A stretch of 64,000 nucleotides of DNA from a virus (lineage: Duplodnaviria; Caudoviricetes), in IMG/VR virus record IMGVR_UViG_3300020411_000002. One strand, 5' to 3'. Positions 15,705 through 21,960 of the stretch are shown here, in pieces (position 1 is the stretch's first letter; each line of letters begins with the position of its first letter). Both the position numbers and the translations under genes were made by a program. Below the pieces are notes generated by a model, which was not told where the DNA came from, made no database searches, and saw nothing but the letters and a program-made list of their open reading frames with translations.

Positions 15705-16967
15705 ATGGCTCGTGGATTTGATAATATTAATCCAAACGCAAACAGTAGAGGAGACAAGCTTAAACCTGAAGAAATTTGGGACTTATTTAAGTTTACTGAC
15801 CAAAGTGGTTATGTCTCTGTTCGCTTTTTGCCAACCGATATCTTACCAGTTAAAACACACTGGATTAAAATCTTAGCAGGCAAAGATAAGAAAGAAATCA
15901 AGATTCCAAAAATTTGTATCAGCTTTGATCCAGATAACGAAGCAGTTGCATTAGATGGTACTGACTGTCCTTATTGCAATCTATCACAAGGTCAAGACGG
16001 TGCGTGTCAAACTTCTACTGCTTATTATGCAAACGTTATAGTGCGTGACTTGCAAGAAGATATGCCGCGTAAGCTGCCGCCACACACTAAGAGTGAAAAA
16101 GAAACTGGATACAAAGATATCAAGTCTCGCTCTTGGACTCCTGTTCGAGTTGTACGTTTACCAGCAGGTCTTGCGGGTAAGATTCAAGAAATGCGTGAGC
16201 GTAACAAAGACAAGAAAGGCAACATGTATCCTGTATCTCATGAAGAGTACGGAATTGACATTGCTATCAAGTTTGATGACAGTAAATCAGGTACGGACAA
16301 GTATCAAATCGATAAAGAAGAGCGCTCTCCTTTAGACGACGAAGAGTTAGACTATCTAACTTATGATTTAAGCGTTGAGTGTATTGATATGCTTGGTCGT
16401 GAAAGTCAGGAACAGGCTGACACCGAATTTAAACGTCTTGATATTGTCGGTGAAGATGAAATCGAAGATGATGAAGACGATGAAGAAGATGATTTACCTC
16501 GTCGTAGTAAGAAAGGCAGTAAAGGTCGTCGCCGTGCATCAGTAGATGACGAAGATGAAGAAGATGAAGAAGATGATGAAGAAGATGATCTTCCACGTAG
16601 TCGTAGAGGTAAAAAGTCTTCTAGCCGTCGCTCTCGCCGCAGTTCAATTGATGAAGACGATGACGAAGATGAAGACGAAGACGAAGACGAAGAAGAGTCT
16701 CGTAGCTCTCGCCGTAGTAAACGTTCTTCTTCACGATCTAGCCGTCGCAGCCGTCGCAGTGAGCCAGAAGATGACGAAGATGAAGACGAAGATGATGAAC
16801 CTCGTTCTAGACGTAGTAAACGTTCTTCGACCAAGACTTCTAGCAGTAGAAGACGACGCGCACCTGTAGACGAAGAAGAAGATGAAGATGATGAACCTCG
16901 TTCTCGCCGTTCTCGTACATCTTCTAAGACTCGTTCAAGCTCTCGTTCTCGTTCTCGTAGACGATAA
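15705..16967 (+). CDS. T4 gp32-like single-stranded DNA-binding protein with long D/E and R/S tail
   Basis: VRFLP, HWIK, CPYC, YYANVIVR motifs; directly upstream of RecA. Confidence 0.7.
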   Translation: MARGFDNINPNANSRGDKLKPEEIWDLFKFTDQSGYVSVRFLPTDILPVKTHWIKILAGKDKKEIKIPKICISFDPDNEAVALDGTDCPYCNLSQGQDGACQTSTAYYANVIVRDLQEDMPRKLPPHTKSEKETGYKDIKSRSWTPVRVVRLPAGLAGKIQEMRERNKDKKGNMYPVSHEEYGIDIAIKFDDSKSGTDKYQIDKEERSPLDDEELDYLTYDLSVECIDMLGRESQEQADTEFKRLDIVGEDEIEDDEDDEEDDLPRRSKKGSKGRRRASVDDEDEEDEEDDEEDDLPRSRRGKKSSSRRSRRSSIDEDDDEDEDEDEDEEESRSSRRSKRSSSRSSRRSRRSEPEDDEDEDEDDEPRSRRSKRSSTKTSSSRRRRAPVDEEEDEDDEPRSRRSRTSSKTRSSSRSRSRRR

Positions 16968-19843
16968 TGCCAGCACGAACTACAAAGGCGGCTGAGACTA
17001 CAACTCGCCGTCGCCGTCGTTCTACTAGCGTAGCAGCGACCGAGACAACAGGTGTGAGCAAGCCTAAATCTGCTCGTAGTACCAAGCAGGAAGTAGTAGA
17101 AAACAATAAAGAGTTTTTTGATATCGGTCAAATGCTTGATGAACTTCAAGATGAAACTGATAAGAAATACGGACTTGTAAGCTCAGTACTTGAACGCTCT
17201 AGTGACCGAATGAGTACAGGTATTTTATCTTTGGACTTGTTGCTATATGGTGGTATTCAGCCAGGCGGTTGGTATACTATTTACGGTCCTGAGCAAAGTG
17301 CAAAGTCTACTCTTGCTATGACTATTCTTGCACAAGCGTTACATGCACGAATGACTAAAGGTTCTAAGTTTGCTTGTGGTATCTTTGACTACGAAGGTTC
17401 TGTAGATGAAGAATACACTGGTAACATTATCAAGTCATTGGGCATTAAAGGTAATGCAGCGCAAATCTTTGGTGTACGTGATGATGACGGTGGTTGGGAA
17501 ATTCCTCCTCTTGCTCGTTATTACTCACACGATGTTGGTGATGACTTCTTTAAAGCTCTAGCCAAAATTCGCCGTGGACTTCCAGACAAACAAACGATTA
17601 ACGGCGAGCCGTGTTATCTATTTGAACACACGAAAGCTAACAAGTCTAAGTTTGCTGGAATGTACGATACCAAGTACTTGTCTCGTAACAACAAGATTAA
17701 AGTACCTGCACCAGACGGCTTCATGCAAGGTTTATACTTGTGTGACTCTTATCCAGCTATGTTACCAGATGGTCTTGATGACGATGACCGTAACAGTGGT
17801 ATGGCAGAGCAAGCTCGTATGTTCAGTGAGGGTATCAAAAAAGTTAAAGGCGGTATGCGTAAGAAAGCAATGACTGTAATTGGTATTAACCAGTTGCGTC
17901 TACGTCCAGCGACTATGTTTGGTAATCCTGAATACGAACCGTGTGGTGAAGCGTTGAAGTTTTTCTGCTTCCATCCTACAACAAACCTCTTTACTAAAGA
18001 TGGTCTTGTAACAGGACAGGAGTTTTACGATTCTGGAAGCATGTCTAAGATTCTAGGATCTAAAGGACTTGAGAAACCTACTATCTTTGATAGTACGGGC
18101 TACAGTCAGATTAGTTGTCTAACTACTGAACTTGGTAACTTTATCAAAGCTAAACCTGGACATAGAACACTCTCTATTCAAAATAGAGGCTGTATGCCTG
18201 AATGGACAAAGTTGTCCAGCTTTACAGGCACTGTAGATCGTTATGTTCCTGTTAAAGTAGGTAGTGATATTTGGTCAGATACTGATGCACTATTAGATTT
18301 TGAATCTTTTTCAAAGTATGATAATGATGTTTGTATATCCAGTGTTCCTGAATCAATGTCACCTAAGTTAGCGTATGTTCTAGGCTCTTTATGCGGCGAT
18401 GGTCATGTTCCAGGTACTGGTGTTATTCATTTTGTTACTCAAGACGAAGATACAATGGACTTCTTCTTAGAATGTTTCGAGGAATCGTTTTCATTATCAG
18501 GTCTTGAGTACAGACAGGTAGATAATAAGTTTGAATTCAGCTTATCTAGTCGTAGGATTTCTAACTTCTTAGGTTACTTAGGTTCTACAGGTACTTCCCG
18601 AACTAAGTCTGTTCCTTGGGCAGTCAGAACCTCTACTAAGAAGTCATGTTTGATGTTCTTACGAGGCTTGTTTGACTCAGACGGTAATGTAGGCCCTAAA
18701 GGTATAGGTCTTTCAACAACATCTAAATTGCTTTCCGAGCAAGTACACTTAATGTTGTTGAACTTGGGATGTATTGCTAGACTGAAACGTAAAGACCATG
18801 ATTACCATGAGCATAAAGAACTGAATGCGGTTTATAACATAAGCTGTAGTGGTTCAAATGCTGTACGTTTGTATGAATCCGTAGGTTTAACTTCCGCTCG
18901 AAAAGCAGAAGCCTTTGAATCTAAAAGTACTGGCGATCATACTCATAATGAAATGTATTCTCTTGATCTAATACCTTTTGATGTTTTACCTACTGGTAGA
19001 CAGAAGTTTCAAAAGCTTGAGGGTCTTTTGGCGGAATGCAAAGGAAGAGGAGCTTATTATCGCATTAGCCGCTTTACAGAGGATTGGTTTGATGAAGCAT
19101 TTGGTTTTGTTGAGACTTTACGTACCGAGCATGAACGTGAAAAGTATCAAAACTTTCTTATTACACTAAGTAAGTTTATAGACTACACTAGCGAAAATTC
19201 TTTGTTCTGGACAAAAGTTGTTTCTGTAGACCATAACCTAGAGCGTTCGATGACCTATGATGCTAACATGCCTAAAACACATTCAATTGTGACTAACGGT
19301 ATTGTTTCTCATAACTCCGATGTTCGAATCAAGTCTACTCCACGCAGCACAGGTCCTAGCGGTTTCGTTGTTAATAAAGGAATCGTTGAAGAGCCTAGCG
19401 TTACTGGAAGAGGAAAAGACACTTACCGCTTCTTGCGTTTAAAGACTACTAAGAACAAACTTGGTGGTATGCCACAGCAAGAATGTTGGGCACGTATCTG
19501 GATATCTGATGGTACTGGTACTGCTCGGGGTCTTGACCCAGCGTTTGATACGTTTGAGTATCTTTCACTTCTTGGAATGGTTAGCGGAAACAAAAACAAT
19601 TACAAGTTTAGTGAAGATTGCCCACTTCACGGTGCTAAGAAAATCGATTGGATTACATTTAAGAAACTAGTTCTTTGTTCTCCAAAAGAAGTCAAAGCAA
19701 TTTGTGAAGAGCAAGGTATTAAACCTGTTAAGATTCGCGATTGGTGTCAAAAGCGTTGCGCTAACGGAAGTCATCCTAAGTTGTTCAAAGAAATCTTGGT
19801 GTCTGCTGCTACAGGTGGTAAGAAGTCTGACGATGATGAATAA
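16967..19843 (+). CDS. recA: RecA/UvsX recombinase interrupted by an intein
   Basis: STGILSLDLLLYGG, YGPEQSAKST Walker A, DSYPAM, INQLR, GEALKFF|SDVR, KTTKNK. Confidence 0.9.
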   Translation: MPARTTKAAETTTRRRRRSTSVAATETTGVSKPKSARSTKQEVVENNKEFFDIGQMLDELQDETDKKYGLVSSVLERSSDRMSTGILSLDLLLYGGIQPGGWYTIYGPEQSAKSTLAMTILAQALHARMTKGSKFACGIFDYEGSVDEEYTGNIIKSLGIKGNAAQIFGVRDDDGGWEIPPLARYYSHDVGDDFFKALAKIRRGLPDKQTINGEPCYLFEHTKANKSKFAGMYDTKYLSRNNKIKVPAPDGFMQGLYLCDSYPAMLPDGLDDDDRNSGMAEQARMFSEGIKKVKGGMRKKAMTVIGINQLRLRPATMFGNPEYEPCGEALKFFCFHPTTNLFTKDGLVTGQEFYDSGSMSKILGSKGLEKPTIFDSTGYSQISCLTTELGNFIKAKPGHRTLSIQNRGCMPEWTKLSSFTGTVDRYVPVKVGSDIWSDTDALLDFESFSKYDNDVCISSVPESMSPKLAYVLGSLCGDGHVPGTGVIHFVTQDEDTMDFFLECFEESFSLSGLEYRQVDNKFEFSLSSRRISNFLGYLGSTGTSRTKSVPWAVRTSTKKSCLMFLRGLFDSDGNVGPKGIGLSTTSKLLSEQVHLMLLNLGCIARLKRKDHDYHEHKELNAVYNISCSGSNAVRLYESVGLTSARKAEAFESKSTGDHTHNEMYSLDLIPFDVLPTGRQKFQKLEGLLAECKGRGAYYRISRFTEDWFDEAFGFVETLRTEHEREKYQNFLITLSKFIDYTSENSLFWTKVVSVDHNLERSMTYDANMPKTHSIVTNGIVSHNSDVRIKSTPRSTGPSGFVVNKGIVEEPSVTGRGKDTYRFLRLKTTKNKLGGMPQQECWARIWISDGTGTARGLDPAFDTFEYLSLLGMVSGNKNNYKFSEDCPLHGAKKIDWITFKKLVLCSPKEVKAICEEQGIKPVKIRDWCQKRCANGSHPKLFKEILVSAATGGKKSDDDE
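17966..19315 (+). mobile_element. 450-aa LAGLIDADG homing-endonuclease intein in RecA
   Basis: Starts CFHP after ALKFF; ends NGIVSHN before Ser; LAGLIDADG blocks LGSLCGDG and LRGLFDSDG. Confidence 0.92.
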
Positions 19844-19851
19844 TCAAAAAG

Positions 19852-19859
19852 TGTAAATA
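19852..19859 (+). promoter_or_regulatory. TGTAAATA phage promoter motif ahead of the RNA island
   Basis: AAAAAGTGTAAATAG just after the RecA stop. Confidence 0.55.
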
Positions 19860-19864
19860 GTAAG

Positions 19865-19932
19865 TATGGCAGTAGTTCAGTTTTTATTTGCTCATTGCAG
19901 TTAAAATCTTTTCTACCTGAACTACTGCCGTA
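19865..19932 (+). other. 16-bp hairpin
   Basis: TATGGCAGTAGTTCAG (19865-19880) pairs with CTGAACTACTGCCGTA (19917-19932); one G-U pair on the + strand. Confidence 0.8.
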
Positions 19933-19941
19933 TTCTACAAT

Positions 19942-20169
19942 CAACATAGCGATACTTTCTTGAAAGTCTAAGATAACGACACACGTAACCTCATCTACGT
20001 TGAGTATCAAAGACTAGAAACTAGGAACGTGCTGAGGAGCAAGATAGAGGGGCTTCCAATATGCAGACCGAAAGTGAGCGGGGATTCTCACAATGACTTA
20101 TTGAACGCAAGCGATTTGATCACGTAAGCTATTAGATAGGTTGTTTTGTTAGAAAGTATCGCTATGTTG
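19942..20169 (+). ncRNA. Candidate structured RNA closed by a perfect 19-bp stem
   Basis: CAACATAGCGATACTTTCT (19942-19960) / AGAAAGTATCGCTATGTTG (20151-20169); internal hairpins. Confidence 0.5.
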
Positions 20170-20178
20170 TTTTTCAAT

Positions 20179-20313
20179 GCAGAGAATCACGGTAACAGAT
20201 TGGCTAGTCTAAATCCGTAGGTGTAATAACTAGTGTACATCAGGAATACAGGACATGTGTTGCATGAGCTGGCGCAAAGCCTGTGTTGGTTCGATTCCAA
20301 CTCTCTGCTCCCA
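20179..20313 (+). ncRNA. 135-nt tRNA-like RNA
   Basis: Acceptor GCAGAGA/TCTCTGC, T-arm GTTGG-TTCGATT-CCAAC, 3' CCA; enlarged interior with no clear anticodon arm. Confidence 0.6.
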
Positions 20314-20329
20314 ATTAAACGAGGTATGT

Positions 20330-20866
20330 ATGAACATGAACGTTAAGGATATAATAAATAGATATAAATCCGAAATAGATTCTCTTAATGAGCTTGTTGA
20401 ATCCTTACAATCTCATAATGGTTCACTACAAGAACAGATTCATAATATGGTAACTGAGTACGGCGATGTTTGGTATGACGGTTATTGTGCTGCACAGAAA
20501 AATCAGAAAGAGCTTAATGAAAACTTTGTTTCTGAAAAACGTGAAGCAGGTGAAGACTTCGAACTTCCACCGACAATAGATGAACTTTACTCTGAACAAG
20601 AAGTCAGAGAAATGAGTGAGAACGCCGAGTCTCTTTACGAAGCTAAATCTGTCGGTCGCAAGTTCGTTATGGAATCCAGCGGTTACTACGGTGAAGTTAA
20701 ATTGCCTGCTGCGATATTCAATGAACTTAATCCTGAATTTGTTTTAAGTAGGTCTACTGATACTACCAAGTTCATGTGCGCTAATCCAGAAGAAACAAAA
20801 TACTTGCAGAGCCTGGGTGTTAAAGTAGTTGAAGTTTGTGACTGGTACAAGTTAATAAAAGAATAA
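20330..20866 (+). CDS. Hypothetical protein (start moved from 20255 to ATG after GAGGT)
   Basis: The longer ORF would overlap the tRNA-like RNA; RBS GAGGT lies upstream of 20330. Confidence 0.7.
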   Translation: MNMNVKDIINRYKSEIDSLNELVESLQSHNGSLQEQIHNMVTEYGDVWYDGYCAAQKNQKELNENFVSEKREAGEDFELPPTIDELYSEQEVREMSENAESLYEAKSVGRKFVMESSGYYGEVKLPAAIFNELNPEFVLSRSTDTTKFMCANPEETKYLQSLGVKVVEVCDWYKLIKE

Positions 20867-20870
20867 ATAA

Positions 20871-20941
20871 GGAGACAGACGGTCAGCTAGAGGATTTCAA
20901 CCCTCGATTGCTGGTGGGTTCGAGTCCCCCTGTCTTCACCA
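20871..20941 (+). tRNA. Atypical tRNA, anticodon ambiguous (TTC/TCA), short D-arm
   Basis: Acceptor GGAGACA/TGTCTTC-A-CCA; T-loop TTCGAGT; anticodon stem GAGG/CCTC around ATTTCAAC. Confidence 0.65.
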
Positions 20942-20954
20942 ATTTAAGGAAAAA

Positions 20955-21116
20955 ATGATGCAACTCTTTATTACAATGATTTCTGTTTGTGCTTTTATAG
21001 GTTTATTACTTTTACTGCATATAATCTTTGTAGTACCTGCTATCAACCGCTTCCGTATGTGGAAACACAGTCCATCAAGGAAAAAAGAAAGTCATGCAAG
21101 ACATAACAAACTATAG
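20955..21116 (+). CDS. Small membrane protein (53 aa, not in ORF track)
   Basis: AAGGA RBS; MMQLFITMISVCAFIGLLLLLHIIFVVPA hydrophobic segment, then a basic tail. Confidence 0.55.
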   Translation: MMQLFITMISVCAFIGLLLLLHIIFVVPAINRFRMWKHSPSRKKESHARHNKL

Positions 21117-21624: not shown

Positions 21625-21960
21625 ATGTCTAAATTTCTTAAAGTTAAAATCAAATCACTTGCAGAAGAACAACGAATCATTAAACGTGAAGAGCAGCGTT
21701 ATCGGGGACCCAAATGGGGCGCTAATTGGACGCGTGTTGCCTTAATGATTCATCGCTTACATACCGTACGTCCCGAGATTAGGGCTAGTCACTTGGCATA
21801 CGGTTATCTTCGAGGAAAGCCACTTCACTGTATTGAATCTAGTGCCAGCCGTTCCCAACCCGATTGGCATCGAGTGTTCGCTATGGTAAAGAAGTACGGT
21901 ACTTTCCAGCAAGTTCAAGACTTTGAGCAATGGAAACAACCTCAATCCAAAGCCGCTTAA
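21625..21960 (+). CDS. Hypothetical phage protein
   Basis: 111 aa, RBS AGGT; KIKSLAEE...HLAYGYLRG. Confidence 0.75.
   Translation: MSKFLKVKIKSLAEEQRIIKREEQRYRGPKWGANWTRVALMIHRLHTVRPEIRASHLAYGYLRGKPLHCIESSASRSQPDWHRVFAMVKKYGTFQQVQDFEQWKQPQSKAA

What the first reader, a model, noticed from the sequence alone, without database searches (positions are those of the whole stretch)
20179..20313. 135-nt tRNA mimic with acceptor stem, T-arm and CCA but a multi-hairpin body
The 7-bp acceptor and canonical T-arm are perfect. The D/anticodon region is replaced by about 100 nt with stems ACGG/CCGT, AGATT/AGTCT, ACAGG/CCTGT and CATG/CATG, and two nt (TC) precede CCA. It has no G3-U70 pair and is too short for tmRNA. 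It may be a decoy for tRNA-targeting defences or sensors, or a new TLS RNA class.
Basis: partly seen in the sequence, partly recalled or inferred. Interest (0 to 1): 0.62.

Follow-up and report, generated by a model that had tools for sequence, protein, structure and literature searches.

The report
Phage tRNA-like RNA with self-pairing loop
A marine giant phage and its relatives keep a 135-base RNA that has the top half of a tRNA. Where the anticodon should be it has a six-letter self-complementary loop, so it is probably a stable, non-decoding tRNA mimic that may pair with itself.

Summary
Window 20179-20313 has a perfect 7-bp acceptor stem, a canonical T arm (GUUGG-UUCGAUU-CCAAC) and a 100-nt multi-hairpin body.

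- **Detectors:** ARAGORN and Rfam call nothing.
- **Homologs:** they occur in about 10 related uncultured marine jumbo phages, in Phage NCTB and in one further contig, single copy where a whole or near-whole record was searched. All fold into the same five-way junction: acceptor, H1, H2, H3 and T arm.
- **Covariation:** 18 of 37 base pairs show compensatory double changes, so this is a selected RNA and not a decaying pseudo-tRNA.

- The CCA is accidental. Only U73-C74-C75 is conserved.
- The CATG/CATG stem is not supported, and the H2 stem (GGUGUA/UACAUC) was missed.

H2 sits where the anticodon arm would be. Its 9-10-nt loop always carries a 6-nt palindrome: ACUAGU, ACCGGU or AUCGAU. The changes are symmetric, as in a kissing-loop dimerisation site.

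The RNA lies in an "RNA island" with a structured 234-nt domain, a second armless tRNA-like element and, in some relatives, a tRNA-Met. Each tRNA-like unit abuts a stop codon upstream and a ribosome-binding site downstream.

The closest known analogue is phage T4 RNAC (species 1 RNA), whose function is still unknown.

Best reading: a non-decoding mimic of the tRNA top half, matured by the host tRNA-processing enzymes and probably dimeric. Its function is not established. The scan had not noted this RNA on other DNA.

The parts
20179..20313 (+). TLS1, the whole tRNA-like RNA: a five-way junction plus the tail UCCCA
   Evidence: The covariance model R1 scores it at 167 bits. Homologs score 52-173 bits. 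In the 10-sequence alignment, 18 of 37 pairs show double changes.
20179..20185 (+). Acceptor stem, 5' strand (GCAGAGA). It pairs with 20302-20308. The base before it (-1) is U.
   Evidence: Three of the 7 pairs show compensatory changes. U at -1 is also seen in NCTB and L051.
20189..20218 (+). H1 arm. Outer stem ACGG/CCGU, a 4x4 internal loop, and an inner hairpin AGAUU-GGCU-AGUCU.
   Evidence: A-U changes to G-C in L019, L020 and L026. NCTB has CUGA/UCAG instead.
20220..20241 (+). H2 arm at the anticodon-arm position. 6-bp stem GGUGUA/UACAUC with the 10-nt loop AUAACUAGUG.
   Evidence: U-A changes to C-G at two stem positions, with U-G intermediates.
20229..20234 (+). 6-nt palindrome ACUAGU in the H2 apical loop, the candidate kissing-loop dimerisation site
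   Evidence: The same columns read ACCGGU in L020 and L026, AUCGAU in NCTB and ACUAGU in L051. This is the only all-palindromic window among 94 variable 4-column windows.
20248..20284 (+). H3 arm at the variable-arm position. Stem ACAGG/CCUGU directly abuts the T stem. Inner helix UGUGU/GCGCA, with a variable tip.
   Evidence: All 5 outer pairs covary: GCUGU/ACAGC in NCTB and AGGAC/GUCCU in L051.
20285..20301 (+). T arm: GUUGG UUCGAUU CCAAC
   Evidence: L051 has GUCAG/CUGAC, two compensatory pairs.
20302..20313 (+). Acceptor stem 3' strand (UCUCUGC) plus the tail U73-C74-C75-C-A
   Evidence: UCC is invariant. The fourth base is C or U and the fifth is A or U.
19939..20172 (+). I1 domain: four hairpins closed by a 19-22-bp stem. 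It ends 6 nt before TLS1 and lies on the same transcript.
   Evidence: Inverted repeat found. Consensus fold with 5 compensatory pairs. Present in NCTB and L051, where the closing stem covaries.
19851..19932 (+). Promoter-like GTGTAAATA (19851-19859) and the leader hairpin I2 (19865-19880 pairing with 19917-19932)
   Evidence: The motif recurs about 40-50 nt upstream of several ORF starts and 13 nt upstream of TLS1 in L051. That it is a promoter is an inference.
20871..20941 (+). TLS2, a second tRNA-like element. Three-way junction, no D arm, ACCA encoded. It flanks the 178-aa ORF on its other side.
   Evidence: 94% identical in NCTB. The acceptor stem covaries in L051.

Best explanation
TLS1 is a gene for a small, stable, non-decoding RNA that mimics only the 'top half' of a tRNA: the acceptor stem stacked on the T arm.

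**Proposed steps**
1. It is transcribed as part of a longer RNA. In this window that RNA probably starts at the GTGTAAATA motif at 19851 and runs through the I2 hairpin, the I1 domain, TLS1, the 178-aa ORF and TLS2.
2. The top half recruits the host's tRNA maturation enzymes. RNase P cuts between U20178 and G20179. The 3' side is cut and trimmed back to U73-C74-C75, and the CCA-adding enzyme completes the end. This yields a discrete RNA of about 134 nt. It also frees the upstream RNA and leaves the downstream mRNA with a short leader just ahead of its ribosome-binding site.
3. The body (H1, H2, H3) replaces the D and anticodon arms and cannot read codons. Its H2 apical loop carries a conserved 6-nt self-complementary sequence, through which two molecules most likely form a kissing-loop homodimer joined end to end at the 'anticodon' tips.

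**What is shown and what is inferred**
- Shown: the conserved structure, the covariation, the palindrome rule, the genomic arrangement and the absence of an anticodon loop.
- Inferred: processing by RNase P and the CCA-adding enzyme, RNA stability and dimerisation.
- Unknown: the downstream cellular role. A stable scaffold or sponge for a factor that binds the tRNA top half is the simplest guess.
For: **Structure**
- The window, L008, NCTB and L051 sequences each fold on their own into the same five-way junction.
- On the 10-sequence alignment, 98.1% of cells are paired and 18 of 37 pairs have double changes. None of 500 shuffles reaches this, and slid controls give 1-4 such pairs. Every helix has at least one compensatory pair.

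**Not coding**
- A 2-nt indel in L008 and L026 lies inside the only overlapping ORF extension.

**Not a decoding tRNA**
- ARAGORN and Rfam find nothing.
- The H2 loop is 9-10 nt, and U8 and G18G19 are not conserved.

**Features of a processing substrate**
- A 12-bp acceptor/T stack and a canonical T loop.
- U at position -1 in the window clade, NCTB and L051.
- Invariant U73-C74-C75. By established knowledge, the two C's pair with the L15 loop of bacterial RNase P RNA.

**Punctuation pattern**
- TLS1 and TLS2 sit 2-16 nt after a stop codon or RNA domain, and their 3' ends lie 5-10 nt before the next Shine-Dalgarno sequence, in the window, L008, NCTB and L051.
- No sigma-70-type promoter and no intrinsic terminator is found between 19700 and 21200.
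- RNA-library contigs from two studies begin at 20319 and 20321, just 3' of TLS1, and one contig spans the element. These are weak hints only.

**Palindrome**
- ACUAGU, ACCGGU and AUCGAU occupy the same loop columns, with symmetric changes at positions 3/4 and 2/5.
- It is the only such window among 94 variable ones.
- Duplex energies are -4.3 to -8.3 kcal/mol, against -7.9 to -10.9 for the two HIV-1 DIS hexamers.

**Analogue**
- T4 RNAC is 139 nt, lies in the tRNA cluster, and has a T arm plus an acceptor-like stem and a multi-hairpin body.
Against: - No direct evidence exists for processing, stability, CCA addition or dimerisation. All RNA runs were available only as assembled contigs, which cannot show RNA ends.
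- The palindrome rule rests on three sequence types, that is two independent changes, and was noticed after the fact.
- A 6-bp A/U-rich kissing contact is weaker than the HIV-1 DIS.
- Nearly all homologs are close relatives. Only NCTB and L051 add depth, and their alignment was fitted to the model, although each also folds the same way on its own.
- Pfam scans of 28 window ORFs found no tRNA-related enzyme or obvious protein partner.
- The host is unknown.
Confidence: 0.55

Rival explanations
1. It is a purely cis-acting processing signal ('tRNA punctuation'). TLS1 exists only so that RNase P and the 3'-end nucleases cut the polycistronic RNA. This defines the 3' end of the upstream I1 RNA or mRNA and the 5' end of the downstream mRNA. 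The released 134-nt piece is a by-product with no function of its own.
For: - TLS1 and TLS2 abut stop codons and Shine-Dalgarno sequences tightly in four genome types.
- The order of the RNA modules and ORFs is shuffled among relatives, but the 'TLS then ribosome-binding site' junction is kept.
- RNA contigs start at 20319 and 20321 in two studies (a weak hint).
- No terminators or sigma-70 promoters lie in the tract.
Against: - RNase P needs only the acceptor/T minihelix, yet H1, H2 and H3 are all kept by compensatory changes.
- Several unpaired stretches (GUAGG, AAUAA, GGAA) and the loop palindrome are conserved from the window clade to NCTB.
- A 70-nt element such as TLS2 would suffice for cutting.
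Confidence: 0.2
2. It is an aminoacylatable tRNA-like RNA. After CCA completion, a host synthetase that reads the acceptor end charges it. The G1-C72, C2-G71, U73 set resembles glycine identity, and NCTB has G3-U70, the alanine mark. The charged RNA would then feed or block a translation-linked or aminoacyl-transfer process.
For: - The acceptor end G1-C72/C2-G71/U73-C-C is invariant.
- NCTB has G3-U70.
- The T loop is canonical, so by established knowledge it could be a substrate for EF-Tu, TrmA and TruB.
Against: - G3-U70 is absent in 9 of the 10 distinct sequences in the final alignment, which have A3-U70.
- No conserved anticodon-like triplet is available for synthetases that need one.
- A76 is not encoded.
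- None of the 28 window ORFs scanned against Pfam is a synthetase or aminoacyl-transferase.
Confidence: 0.1
3. It is a decoy or sponge against host tRNA-targeting defences or toxins. The mimic would soak up an enzyme that recognises the acceptor/T domain and so protect real tRNAs.
For: - The top-half mimicry is exact.
- The one relative scanned in full (contig estimated 93% complete) carries only one canonical tRNA, and none is called in this window or in the fetched parts of the other relatives, so TLS1 is not part of a codon-supply set.
- From my own knowledge, not checked here: phages are known to counter tRNA-cleaving defences with their own tRNAs.
Against: - Most known tRNA-targeting defences cut anticodon loops, and TLS1 has none. 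Its loop is a palindrome that changes sequence between lineages.
- No defence or anti-defence gene is linked to it.
- Nothing here tests the idea.
Confidence: 0.1
4. It is a decaying pseudo-tRNA, a former class II tRNA that picked up insertions and is drifting.
For: - The topology recalls a class II tRNA: five helices, with H3 at the variable-arm position.
- There is weak similarity to tRNA-Sec (16.5 bits) and to T4 tRNA-Leu (19.5 bits).
- The neighbouring tRNA-Met is gained or lost among relatives.
Against: - 18 of 37 pairs show compensatory changes, and 98% pairing is kept across relatives whose flanking proteins are only about 65% identical.
- The element is more conserved than the start of the neighbouring ORF.
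- It was found in every related locus checked in the window clade, and as a single copy in the L008 contig and in NCTB, the two records searched whole.
Confidence: 0.03

Closest known systems
Phage T4 RNAC (species 1 RNA, rnaC) and RNAD, the small stable RNAs of the T4 tRNA cluster
   Same: - Size is about 140 nt (T4 RNAC is 139 nt).
- It is encoded in the phage's tRNA region.
- It has a canonical T arm (CCGGG-UUCGAAU-CCCGG), an acceptor-like stem formed by the two ends, and a multi-hairpin body in place of the D and anticodon arms.
- It gets the same faint Rfam tRNA-Sec score (17.5 against 16.5 bits).
- Its function is still unknown (PMC3014915, PMC9697503).
   Different: - No sequence homology. 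Model R1 does not hit rnaC.
- T4 RNAC's acceptor stem has two U-U mismatches, while TLS1's is perfect.
- The number and order of helices differ.
- I saw no palindromic apical loop in RNAC.
- The phage lineage is different: Straboviridae, against the NCTB/PaBG-like jumbo phages.
Class II tRNAs and tRNA-Sec (Rfam RF00005, RF01852)
   Same: - 7-bp acceptor stem, 5-bp T stem and a UUCRANY loop.
- One nucleotide lies between H1 and H2, as position 26 does in a tRNA.
- An extra arm (H3) lies just 5' of the T stem, like a long variable arm.
- The inner H1 hairpin has a 4-nt loop, as the tRNA-Sec D arm does.
   Different: - No 7-nt anticodon loop, no U33 context, and no conserved U8, A14 or G18G19.
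- There are 0 nt between H3 and the T stem.
- H1 is about 30 nt long.
- ARAGORN finds nothing, the Rfam tRNA model does not hit, and tRNA-Sec scores 16.5 bits against a gathering score of 47.
HIV-1 dimerisation initiation site and other palindromic kissing loops (review PMC7357161)
   Same: A 6-nt self-complementary sequence sits in a 9-10-nt apical loop with flanking unpaired bases. The palindrome is kept while its sequence changes between lineages.
   Different: - The RNA context (a tRNA-like small RNA of a DNA phage) is unrelated.
- The palindromes are A/U-richer and predicted to be weaker.
- Dimerisation is untested here.
MALAT1-mascRNA type tRNA-like 3'-end processing modules, and tRNA punctuation of mitochondrial transcripts
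   Same: A tRNA-like fold embedded in a longer transcript directly follows a structured non-coding RNA (the I1 domain ends 6 nt before TLS1). RNase P cleavage would therefore make the upstream RNA's 3' end and release a small tRNA-like RNA.
   Different: - Those are eukaryotic systems, and mascRNA is a 61-nt cloverleaf.
- In NCTB and L051, TLS1 follows a protein gene rather than I1, so this role cannot be its only one.
tmRNA tRNA-like domain, and bacterial YrlA (Y RNA-like) tRNA mimics (PMC4201824)
   Same: These are non-decoding RNAs that keep an acceptor-like stem and a T arm and drop the anticodon function.
   Different: - tmRNA: TLS1 has no G3-U70 in the window clade, no tag reading frame and no pseudoknots, and ARAGORN makes no tmRNA call.
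- YrlA: there is no Ro-binding stem, no Rfam hit at E<=10, and no Ro/TROVE match among the 28 ORFs scanned.

Membership tests
Canonical tRNA (Rfam RF00005) | 7-bp acceptor stem stacked on a 5-bp T stem with a UUCRANY T loop and a G53-C61 pair | tested here: met
   Read directly from the sequence. My motif scan returns four sites in 64 kb, of which only TLS1 and TLS2 carry a canonical T loop. The stems are kept by covariation.
Canonical tRNA (Rfam RF00005) | Anticodon arm: 5-bp stem with a 7-nt loop, U33 and a purine at position 37 | tested here: not met
   H2 has a 6-bp stem and a 9-10-nt loop, and no register gives U33 plus a purine at 37. ARAGORN finds no genes. The Rfam tRNA model gives no hit even at E<=10.
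Canonical tRNA (Rfam RF00005) | D arm with conserved U8, A14 and G18G19 forming the elbow with the T loop | tested here: not met
   Positions 8-10 read AUC in the window clade, CAAU in NCTB and UAC in L051. GG in the H1 loop is present only in this window; relatives have AG.
Canonical tRNA (Rfam RF00005) | 3'-terminal N73-CCA, encoded or added | tested here: inconclusive
   U73-C74-C75 is invariant. The next base is C or U, never a conserved A. Addition of A was not testable because only contigs were available.
tRNA-Sec (Rfam RF01852) | Score at or above the gathering score, and an 8/5 acceptor/T arrangement with a UCA anticodon | tested here: not met
   16.5 bits against a gathering score of 47, E=4. 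The acceptor/T arrangement is 7/5, and there is no UCA loop.
tmRNA | G3-U70 alanine identity pair, a tag reading frame and pseudoknots between the halves of the tRNA-like domain | tested here: not met
   A3-U70 in 9 of the 10 distinct sequences in the final alignment. The element is 135 nt with nested hairpins only. ARAGORN makes no tmRNA call.
T4 RNAC-type phage stable RNA (a kind defined by analogy, not an Rfam family) | An RNA of about 140 nt in a phage tRNA region, with a T arm, an acceptor-like terminal stem and a non-tRNA body | tested here: met
   T4 rnaC folded and compared. TLS1 lies beside TLS2 and, in L008, L020, L026 and L029, beside tRNA-Met.
T4 RNAC-type phage stable RNA (a kind defined by analogy, not an Rfam family) | Sequence or profile homology to T4 rnaC | tested here: not met
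   Model R1 hits T4 tRNA-Leu, tRNA-Thr and tRNA-Arg weakly but does not hit rnaC.
T4 RNAC-type phage stable RNA (a kind defined by analogy, not an Rfam family) | Accumulates as a stable processed RNA cut out of a tRNA-type precursor | not testable with these tools
   Only assembled metatranscriptome contigs were available. One spans TLS1, and two from different studies start 6-8 nt after it.
Palindromic kissing-loop dimerisation site (HIV-1 DIS type) | A self-complementary hexamer exposed in an apical loop, with the palindrome kept across sequence variants | tested here: met
   ACUAGU, ACCGGU and AUCGAU occupy alignment columns 52-57 and lie in the loop in every independent fold.
Palindromic kissing-loop dimerisation site (HIV-1 DIS type) | Physical homodimer formation that depends on the loop | not testable with these tools
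   Needs native gels or structure determination with loop mutants.
Bacterial YrlA / Y RNA | A Ro-binding helix formed by the 5' and 3' ends, linkage to the rsr gene, and a match to the Rfam model | tested here: not met
   No Rfam hit at E<=10 between 19500 and 20700. No TROVE/Ro match in 28 window ORFs, but not every ORF was scanned.
3'-terminal tRNA-like structures of plant RNA viruses | A pseudoknotted acceptor arm at the 3' end of an RNA genome | tested here: not met
   The acceptor stem is an ordinary 5'/3' duplex, and the element is internal to a DNA-phage transcript.

The most novel reading that the evidence does not exclude
TLS1 is the founding member of a new class of phage RNA. It is a tRNA top-half mimic whose 'anticodon' tip is a dimerisation site, so the functional unit is a symmetric tail-to-tail pair of tRNA-like molecules presenting two acceptor/T ends. 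Such a dimer could bridge or titrate a host factor that handles tRNAs, for example a dimeric processing enzyme, a synthetase or a tRNA-sensing defence. It could also assemble with the other large RNAs of the same island. It would also offer a testable model for what T4 RNAC-type RNAs do.
Probability: 0.2. Interest if true: 0.8.

Novelty: new variant of a known kind. Interest (0 to 1): 0.55.

Why it matters
Phage-encoded tRNA-like stable RNAs have been known since T4 species 1 RNA, yet reviews and recent omics papers still list their function as unknown (PMC3014915, PMC9697503).

This element gives that old problem a second, independent example, with three advantages:
- It has a clean, covariation-supported secondary structure.
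- It has a concrete, testable feature: a conserved self-complementary loop at the anticodon position.
- It has a conserved genomic grammar, with tRNA-like units punctuating ORFs and other structured RNAs in a jumbo-phage RNA island.

If dimerisation and processing are confirmed, it would show a new way to reuse the tRNA top half. It would also add a small member to the growing list of natural RNAs that self-associate.

Tried and rejected
- **Standard detectors.** ARAGORN and Rfam at gathering and at E<=10 give no family.
- **BLAST of the gap against 50,697 phage records.** No match.
- **Recombinase gaps of NCTB and PaBG.** No homolog at that spot. The NCTB copy lies 2.4 kb further on.
- **IMG/VR pattern scans.** Four TLS1-derived patterns found only L008 plus chance tRNAs. 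One TLS2 pattern found only L008.
- **Metagenome pattern scan.** It gave 2 true hits, of which only L019 added a new sequence, plus 5 ordinary tRNAs.
- **Model R1 on other genomes.** Nothing in PaBG, two more distant jumbo-phage contigs, L052, L064 or L065. The family seems confined to the NCTB-like group.
- **H1-loop to H2-loop intramolecular kissing (both contain CUAG in this window).** Rejected. It fails in L020, L026 and NCTB, whereas self-complementarity holds in all.
- **I1 as a mobile element with terminal inverted repeats.** Rejected. There is no other copy in the window, and the closing stem covaries in L051.
- **RNA-seq.** All runs are contigs only. They cannot show ends, strand or level. 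In run X5, TLS1 is uncovered while both flanks are covered, but a hole proves nothing.
- **Pfam on 28 window ORFs.** No tRNA-handling enzyme, Ro protein, RNA ligase or synthetase.
- **Literature searches.** The search for 'species 1 RNA' returned nothing. One search call failed on a term that was too short.
- **Whole genome.** None is held for this window.
Full report
**Setting.** The window comes from an uncultured marine jumbo phage. Its SSB-like protein is 66% identical to that of Phage NCTB (LT598654) and 47% identical to that of Pseudomonas phage PaBG. The finding lies in a 487-nt gap. Upstream is an intein-containing UvsX/RecA gene (16967-19843). Downstream is a 178-aa ORF of unknown function (20330-20866).

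**Observation.**
- The sequence at 20179-20313 has a mismatch-free 7-bp acceptor stem (GCAGAGA/UCUCUGC).
- Directly 5' of the acceptor's 3' strand is a canonical T arm, GUUGG-UUCGAUU-CCAAC.
- A scan for this 'top half' arrangement returns four sites in 64 kb. Only this site and a second at 20871-20937 carry a canonical T loop; the other two look like chance. Shuffles give 0-1 loose matches.
- ARAGORN calls no tRNA or tmRNA.
- Rfam gives nothing at gathering level. At E<=10 it gives only tRNA-Sec at 16.5 bits, against a gathering score of 47.
- The minimum-energy fold is a five-way junction:
  - the acceptor stem;
  - H1 (ACGG/CCGU enclosing AGAUU-GGCU-AGUCU);
  - H2 (GGUGUA/UACAUC with a 10-nt loop);
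  - H3 (ACAGG/CCUGU with an inner helix);
  - the T arm.

**Homologs.**
- *Window clade.*
  - An exact-pattern scan of IMG/VR found a close relative, L008.
  - A metagenome scan added L019.
  - Look-ups of the neighbouring 178-aa protein gave seven more contig sets.
- *More distant copies.*
  - A copy lies in Phage NCTB, in a different gap 2.4 kb beyond recA.
  - Another lies in L051, reached through the conserved 111-aa ORF.
- *Model R1.* It was built from the window clade. It scores NCTB at 64 bits (E about 1e-16) and L051 at 52 bits (E about 1e-13).
- *Copy number and absence.*
  - R1 finds one copy in each of the two records searched whole, the L008 contig and NCTB.
  - It finds nothing in PaBG or in more distant jumbo-phage contigs.

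**Structure is under selection.**
- The window, L008, NCTB and L051 sequences each fold independently into the same junction.
- On the 10-sequence alignment, 98.1% of cells pair and 18 of 37 pairs carry double (compensatory) changes. None of 500 shuffles reaches this. Slid controls give 1-4 such pairs. Every helix has at least one compensatory pair, and all five pairs of H3 covary.
- The NCTB and L051 rows were aligned to the model, which favours it. Their own folds agree with it.
- A 2-nt indel in L008 and L026 falls inside the only overlapping ORF extension (ATG at 20255), so the tract is not coding.
- Across close relatives, the RNA tract is more conserved than the beginning of the next ORF.

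**It is not a decoding tRNA.**
- H2 stands where the anticodon arm should, with one nucleotide after H1 as at position 26. However, it has a 6-bp stem and a 9-10-nt loop, and no register gives U33 plus a purine at 37.
- U8 and G18G19 are not conserved.
- H3 stands where a class II variable arm would, but it abuts the T stem with no spacer.

**The CCA is accidental.** The ten distinct sequences in the final alignment end UCCCA, UCCCU or UCCUA. Only U73-C74-C75 is invariant. NCTB happens to have G3-U70; the other nine have A3-U70.

**The palindrome.**
- In alignment columns 52-57, inside the H2 loop, the sequence is ACUAGU (window type and L051), ACCGGU (L020, L026) or AUCGAU (NCTB).
- All three are 6-nt palindromes. 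They differ by symmetric changes: U-A to C-G at positions 3/4 and C-G to U-A at positions 2/5.
- Among 94 variable, gap-free 4-column windows, this is the only one that is palindromic in every sequence.
- A hexamer inside a 10-nt loop cannot pair with itself within one molecule. The simplest reading is intermolecular kissing between two copies, as in retroviral dimerisation sites (general principles in PMC7357161).
- Predicted duplex energies are -4.3 to -8.3 kcal/mol, against -7.9 and -10.9 for the two HIV-1 DIS hexamers.
- The evidence is suggestive, not proof. It rests on two independent changes and was seen after the fact.
- I rejected an H1-loop/H2-loop contact, because it fails in three lineages.

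**Context: an RNA island with a fixed grammar.** Upstream in the same gap lie three features:
- A GTGTAAATA motif at 19851. It recurs about 40-50 nt upstream of several ORF starts in the window and 13 nt upstream of TLS1 in L051.
- A leader hairpin.
- A 234-nt domain (I1, 19939-20172) closed by a 19-22-bp stem, with 5 compensatory pairs. It ends 6 nt before TLS1.

After the 178-aa ORF comes a second element, TLS2 (20871-20941). It is a three-way junction without a D arm, and ACCA is encoded in all relatives.

All three RNA modules recur in NCTB and L051, but in different orders and with different ORFs between them:

| Genome | Order |
|---|---|
| Window | I1 - TLS1 - orf178 - TLS2 |
| L051 | I1 - TLS2 - ORFs - TLS1 |
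| NCTB | I1 - orf - TLS2 - orf - TLS1 |

- In every case a TLS begins 2-16 nt after a stop codon or RNA domain, and its 3' end lies 5-10 nt before the next Shine-Dalgarno sequence.
- No sigma-70-type promoter or intrinsic terminator lies in the tract.
- The relative scanned in full (L008's contig, estimated 93% complete) carries just one canonical tRNA. It is a tRNA-Met(CAU) right after TLS2, and it is present in some relatives and absent here.

**Expression.**
- Only assembled metatranscriptome contigs were available.
- One 645-nt contig from a related strain spans 19761-20407.
- Contigs from two other studies begin at 20319 and 20321, that is 6-8 nt after TLS1 and at the ribosome-binding site.
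- One contig covers only the interior of I1.
- These are weak hints of processing and no more.

**Mechanism proposed.**
- The acceptor/T stack, U at -1 and the conserved C74-C75 are the features that bacterial RNase P, the 3'-trimming nucleases and the CCA-adding enzyme read. This is established knowledge of tRNA maturation and was not tested here.
- I therefore read TLS1 as a top-half tRNA mimic. It is cut out of a longer transcript and finished like a tRNA, and the same cuts separate its neighbours.
- The conserved body and loop argue that the excised RNA has a job of its own, most likely as a dimer.
- What it binds is unknown. Pfam found no tRNA-handling protein among 28 window ORFs.

**Comparison with known systems.**
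- The closest analogue is T4 RNAC (species 1 RNA):
  - It is 139 nt, lies in the tRNA cluster, and has a T arm plus terminal stem and a multi-hairpin body.
  - It gets the same faint tRNA-Sec score.
  - Its function remains unknown (PMC3014915, PMC9697503).
  - There is no sequence homology.
- TLS1 fails the defining tests for tRNA, tRNA-Sec, tmRNA, YrlA and plant-virus TLSs (see the membership table).
- I class it as a new variant of a known kind, namely phage tRNA-like stable RNAs. The new feature is the self-complementary 'anticodon' loop.

**Verdict.**
- Interest is 0.55.
- The scan had not noted this RNA on other DNA.

Noticed in passing
window 20871-20941: TLS2 is a 71-nt tRNA-like element with a 7-bp acceptor stem (GGAGACA/UGUCUUC), a T arm with one U-C mismatch, no D arm, and a single long arm (CAGC/GCUG plus GAGG/CCUC). 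ACCA is encoded. It is 94% identical in NCTB and its stems covary. Its 8-nt loop AUUUCAAC shares UUCAA with a tRNA(UCA) in L052 and an odd tRNA in L064, so it may be a derived opal-reading or armless tRNA.
   Followed up: partly
L008:2916-2991; L020 and L026:6606-6682; L029:3897-3972; compare window 20955-21116: A canonical tRNA-Met(CAU) follows TLS2 in some relatives. In this window and in L023, L030, L031 and L033, that spot holds a 53-aa hydrophobic ORF instead. The L008 contig, scanned in full, has no other tRNA.
   Followed up: yes
window 19939-20172: The I1 domain has four hairpins closed by a 19-22-bp stem. It shows compensatory changes and is conserved in NCTB (record 17833-18076) and L051 (about 1015-1245), where the closing stem covaries. 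It matches no Rfam family and is likely an independent structured RNA. It was noted earlier as e1-5319615.
   Followed up: partly
window 17966-19315, within ORF 16967-19843: The UvsX/RecA gene carries an intein of about 450 aa with a LAGLIDADG endonuclease domain. Relatives (RecA of 502-509 aa) and NCTB lack it, so this is an intein presence/absence polymorphism.
   Followed up: partly
window 3154, 5746(-), 8548, 12198, 12213, 19851, 54488, 60198 and others: The motif (C/G)TGTAAATA recurs about 40-50 nt upstream of ORF starts on the coding strand. In L051 it lies 13 nt before TLS1 and is doubled before I1. It is a candidate phage promoter (-10-like) element.
   Followed up: partly
L001:13370-13462; L051:2035-2139; window 20955-21116: Short hydrophobic ORFs of 30-53 aa, each predicted to have a single transmembrane helix, start within about 10-25 nt of the 3' end of a TLS in three genome types.
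   Followed up: no
L064:4874-6995 and the P0013 contig: In more distant jumbo phages, the homolog of the window's 111-aa ORF (21625-21960) sits among odd tRNA genes, a SpoU methylase, RF-1/PCRF-domain proteins, Gad2 and a T4 Rnl1-type RNA ligase. This looks like a translation and tRNA-repair island.
   Followed up: no
window 20871-20941, in run X1 (record 8): A 2855-nt metatranscriptome contig with mean depth 170 carries a TLS2-like 71-nt stretch (4 differences) in an otherwise unrelated context. TLS2-like elements therefore exist in at least one other abundant entity.
   Followed up: no
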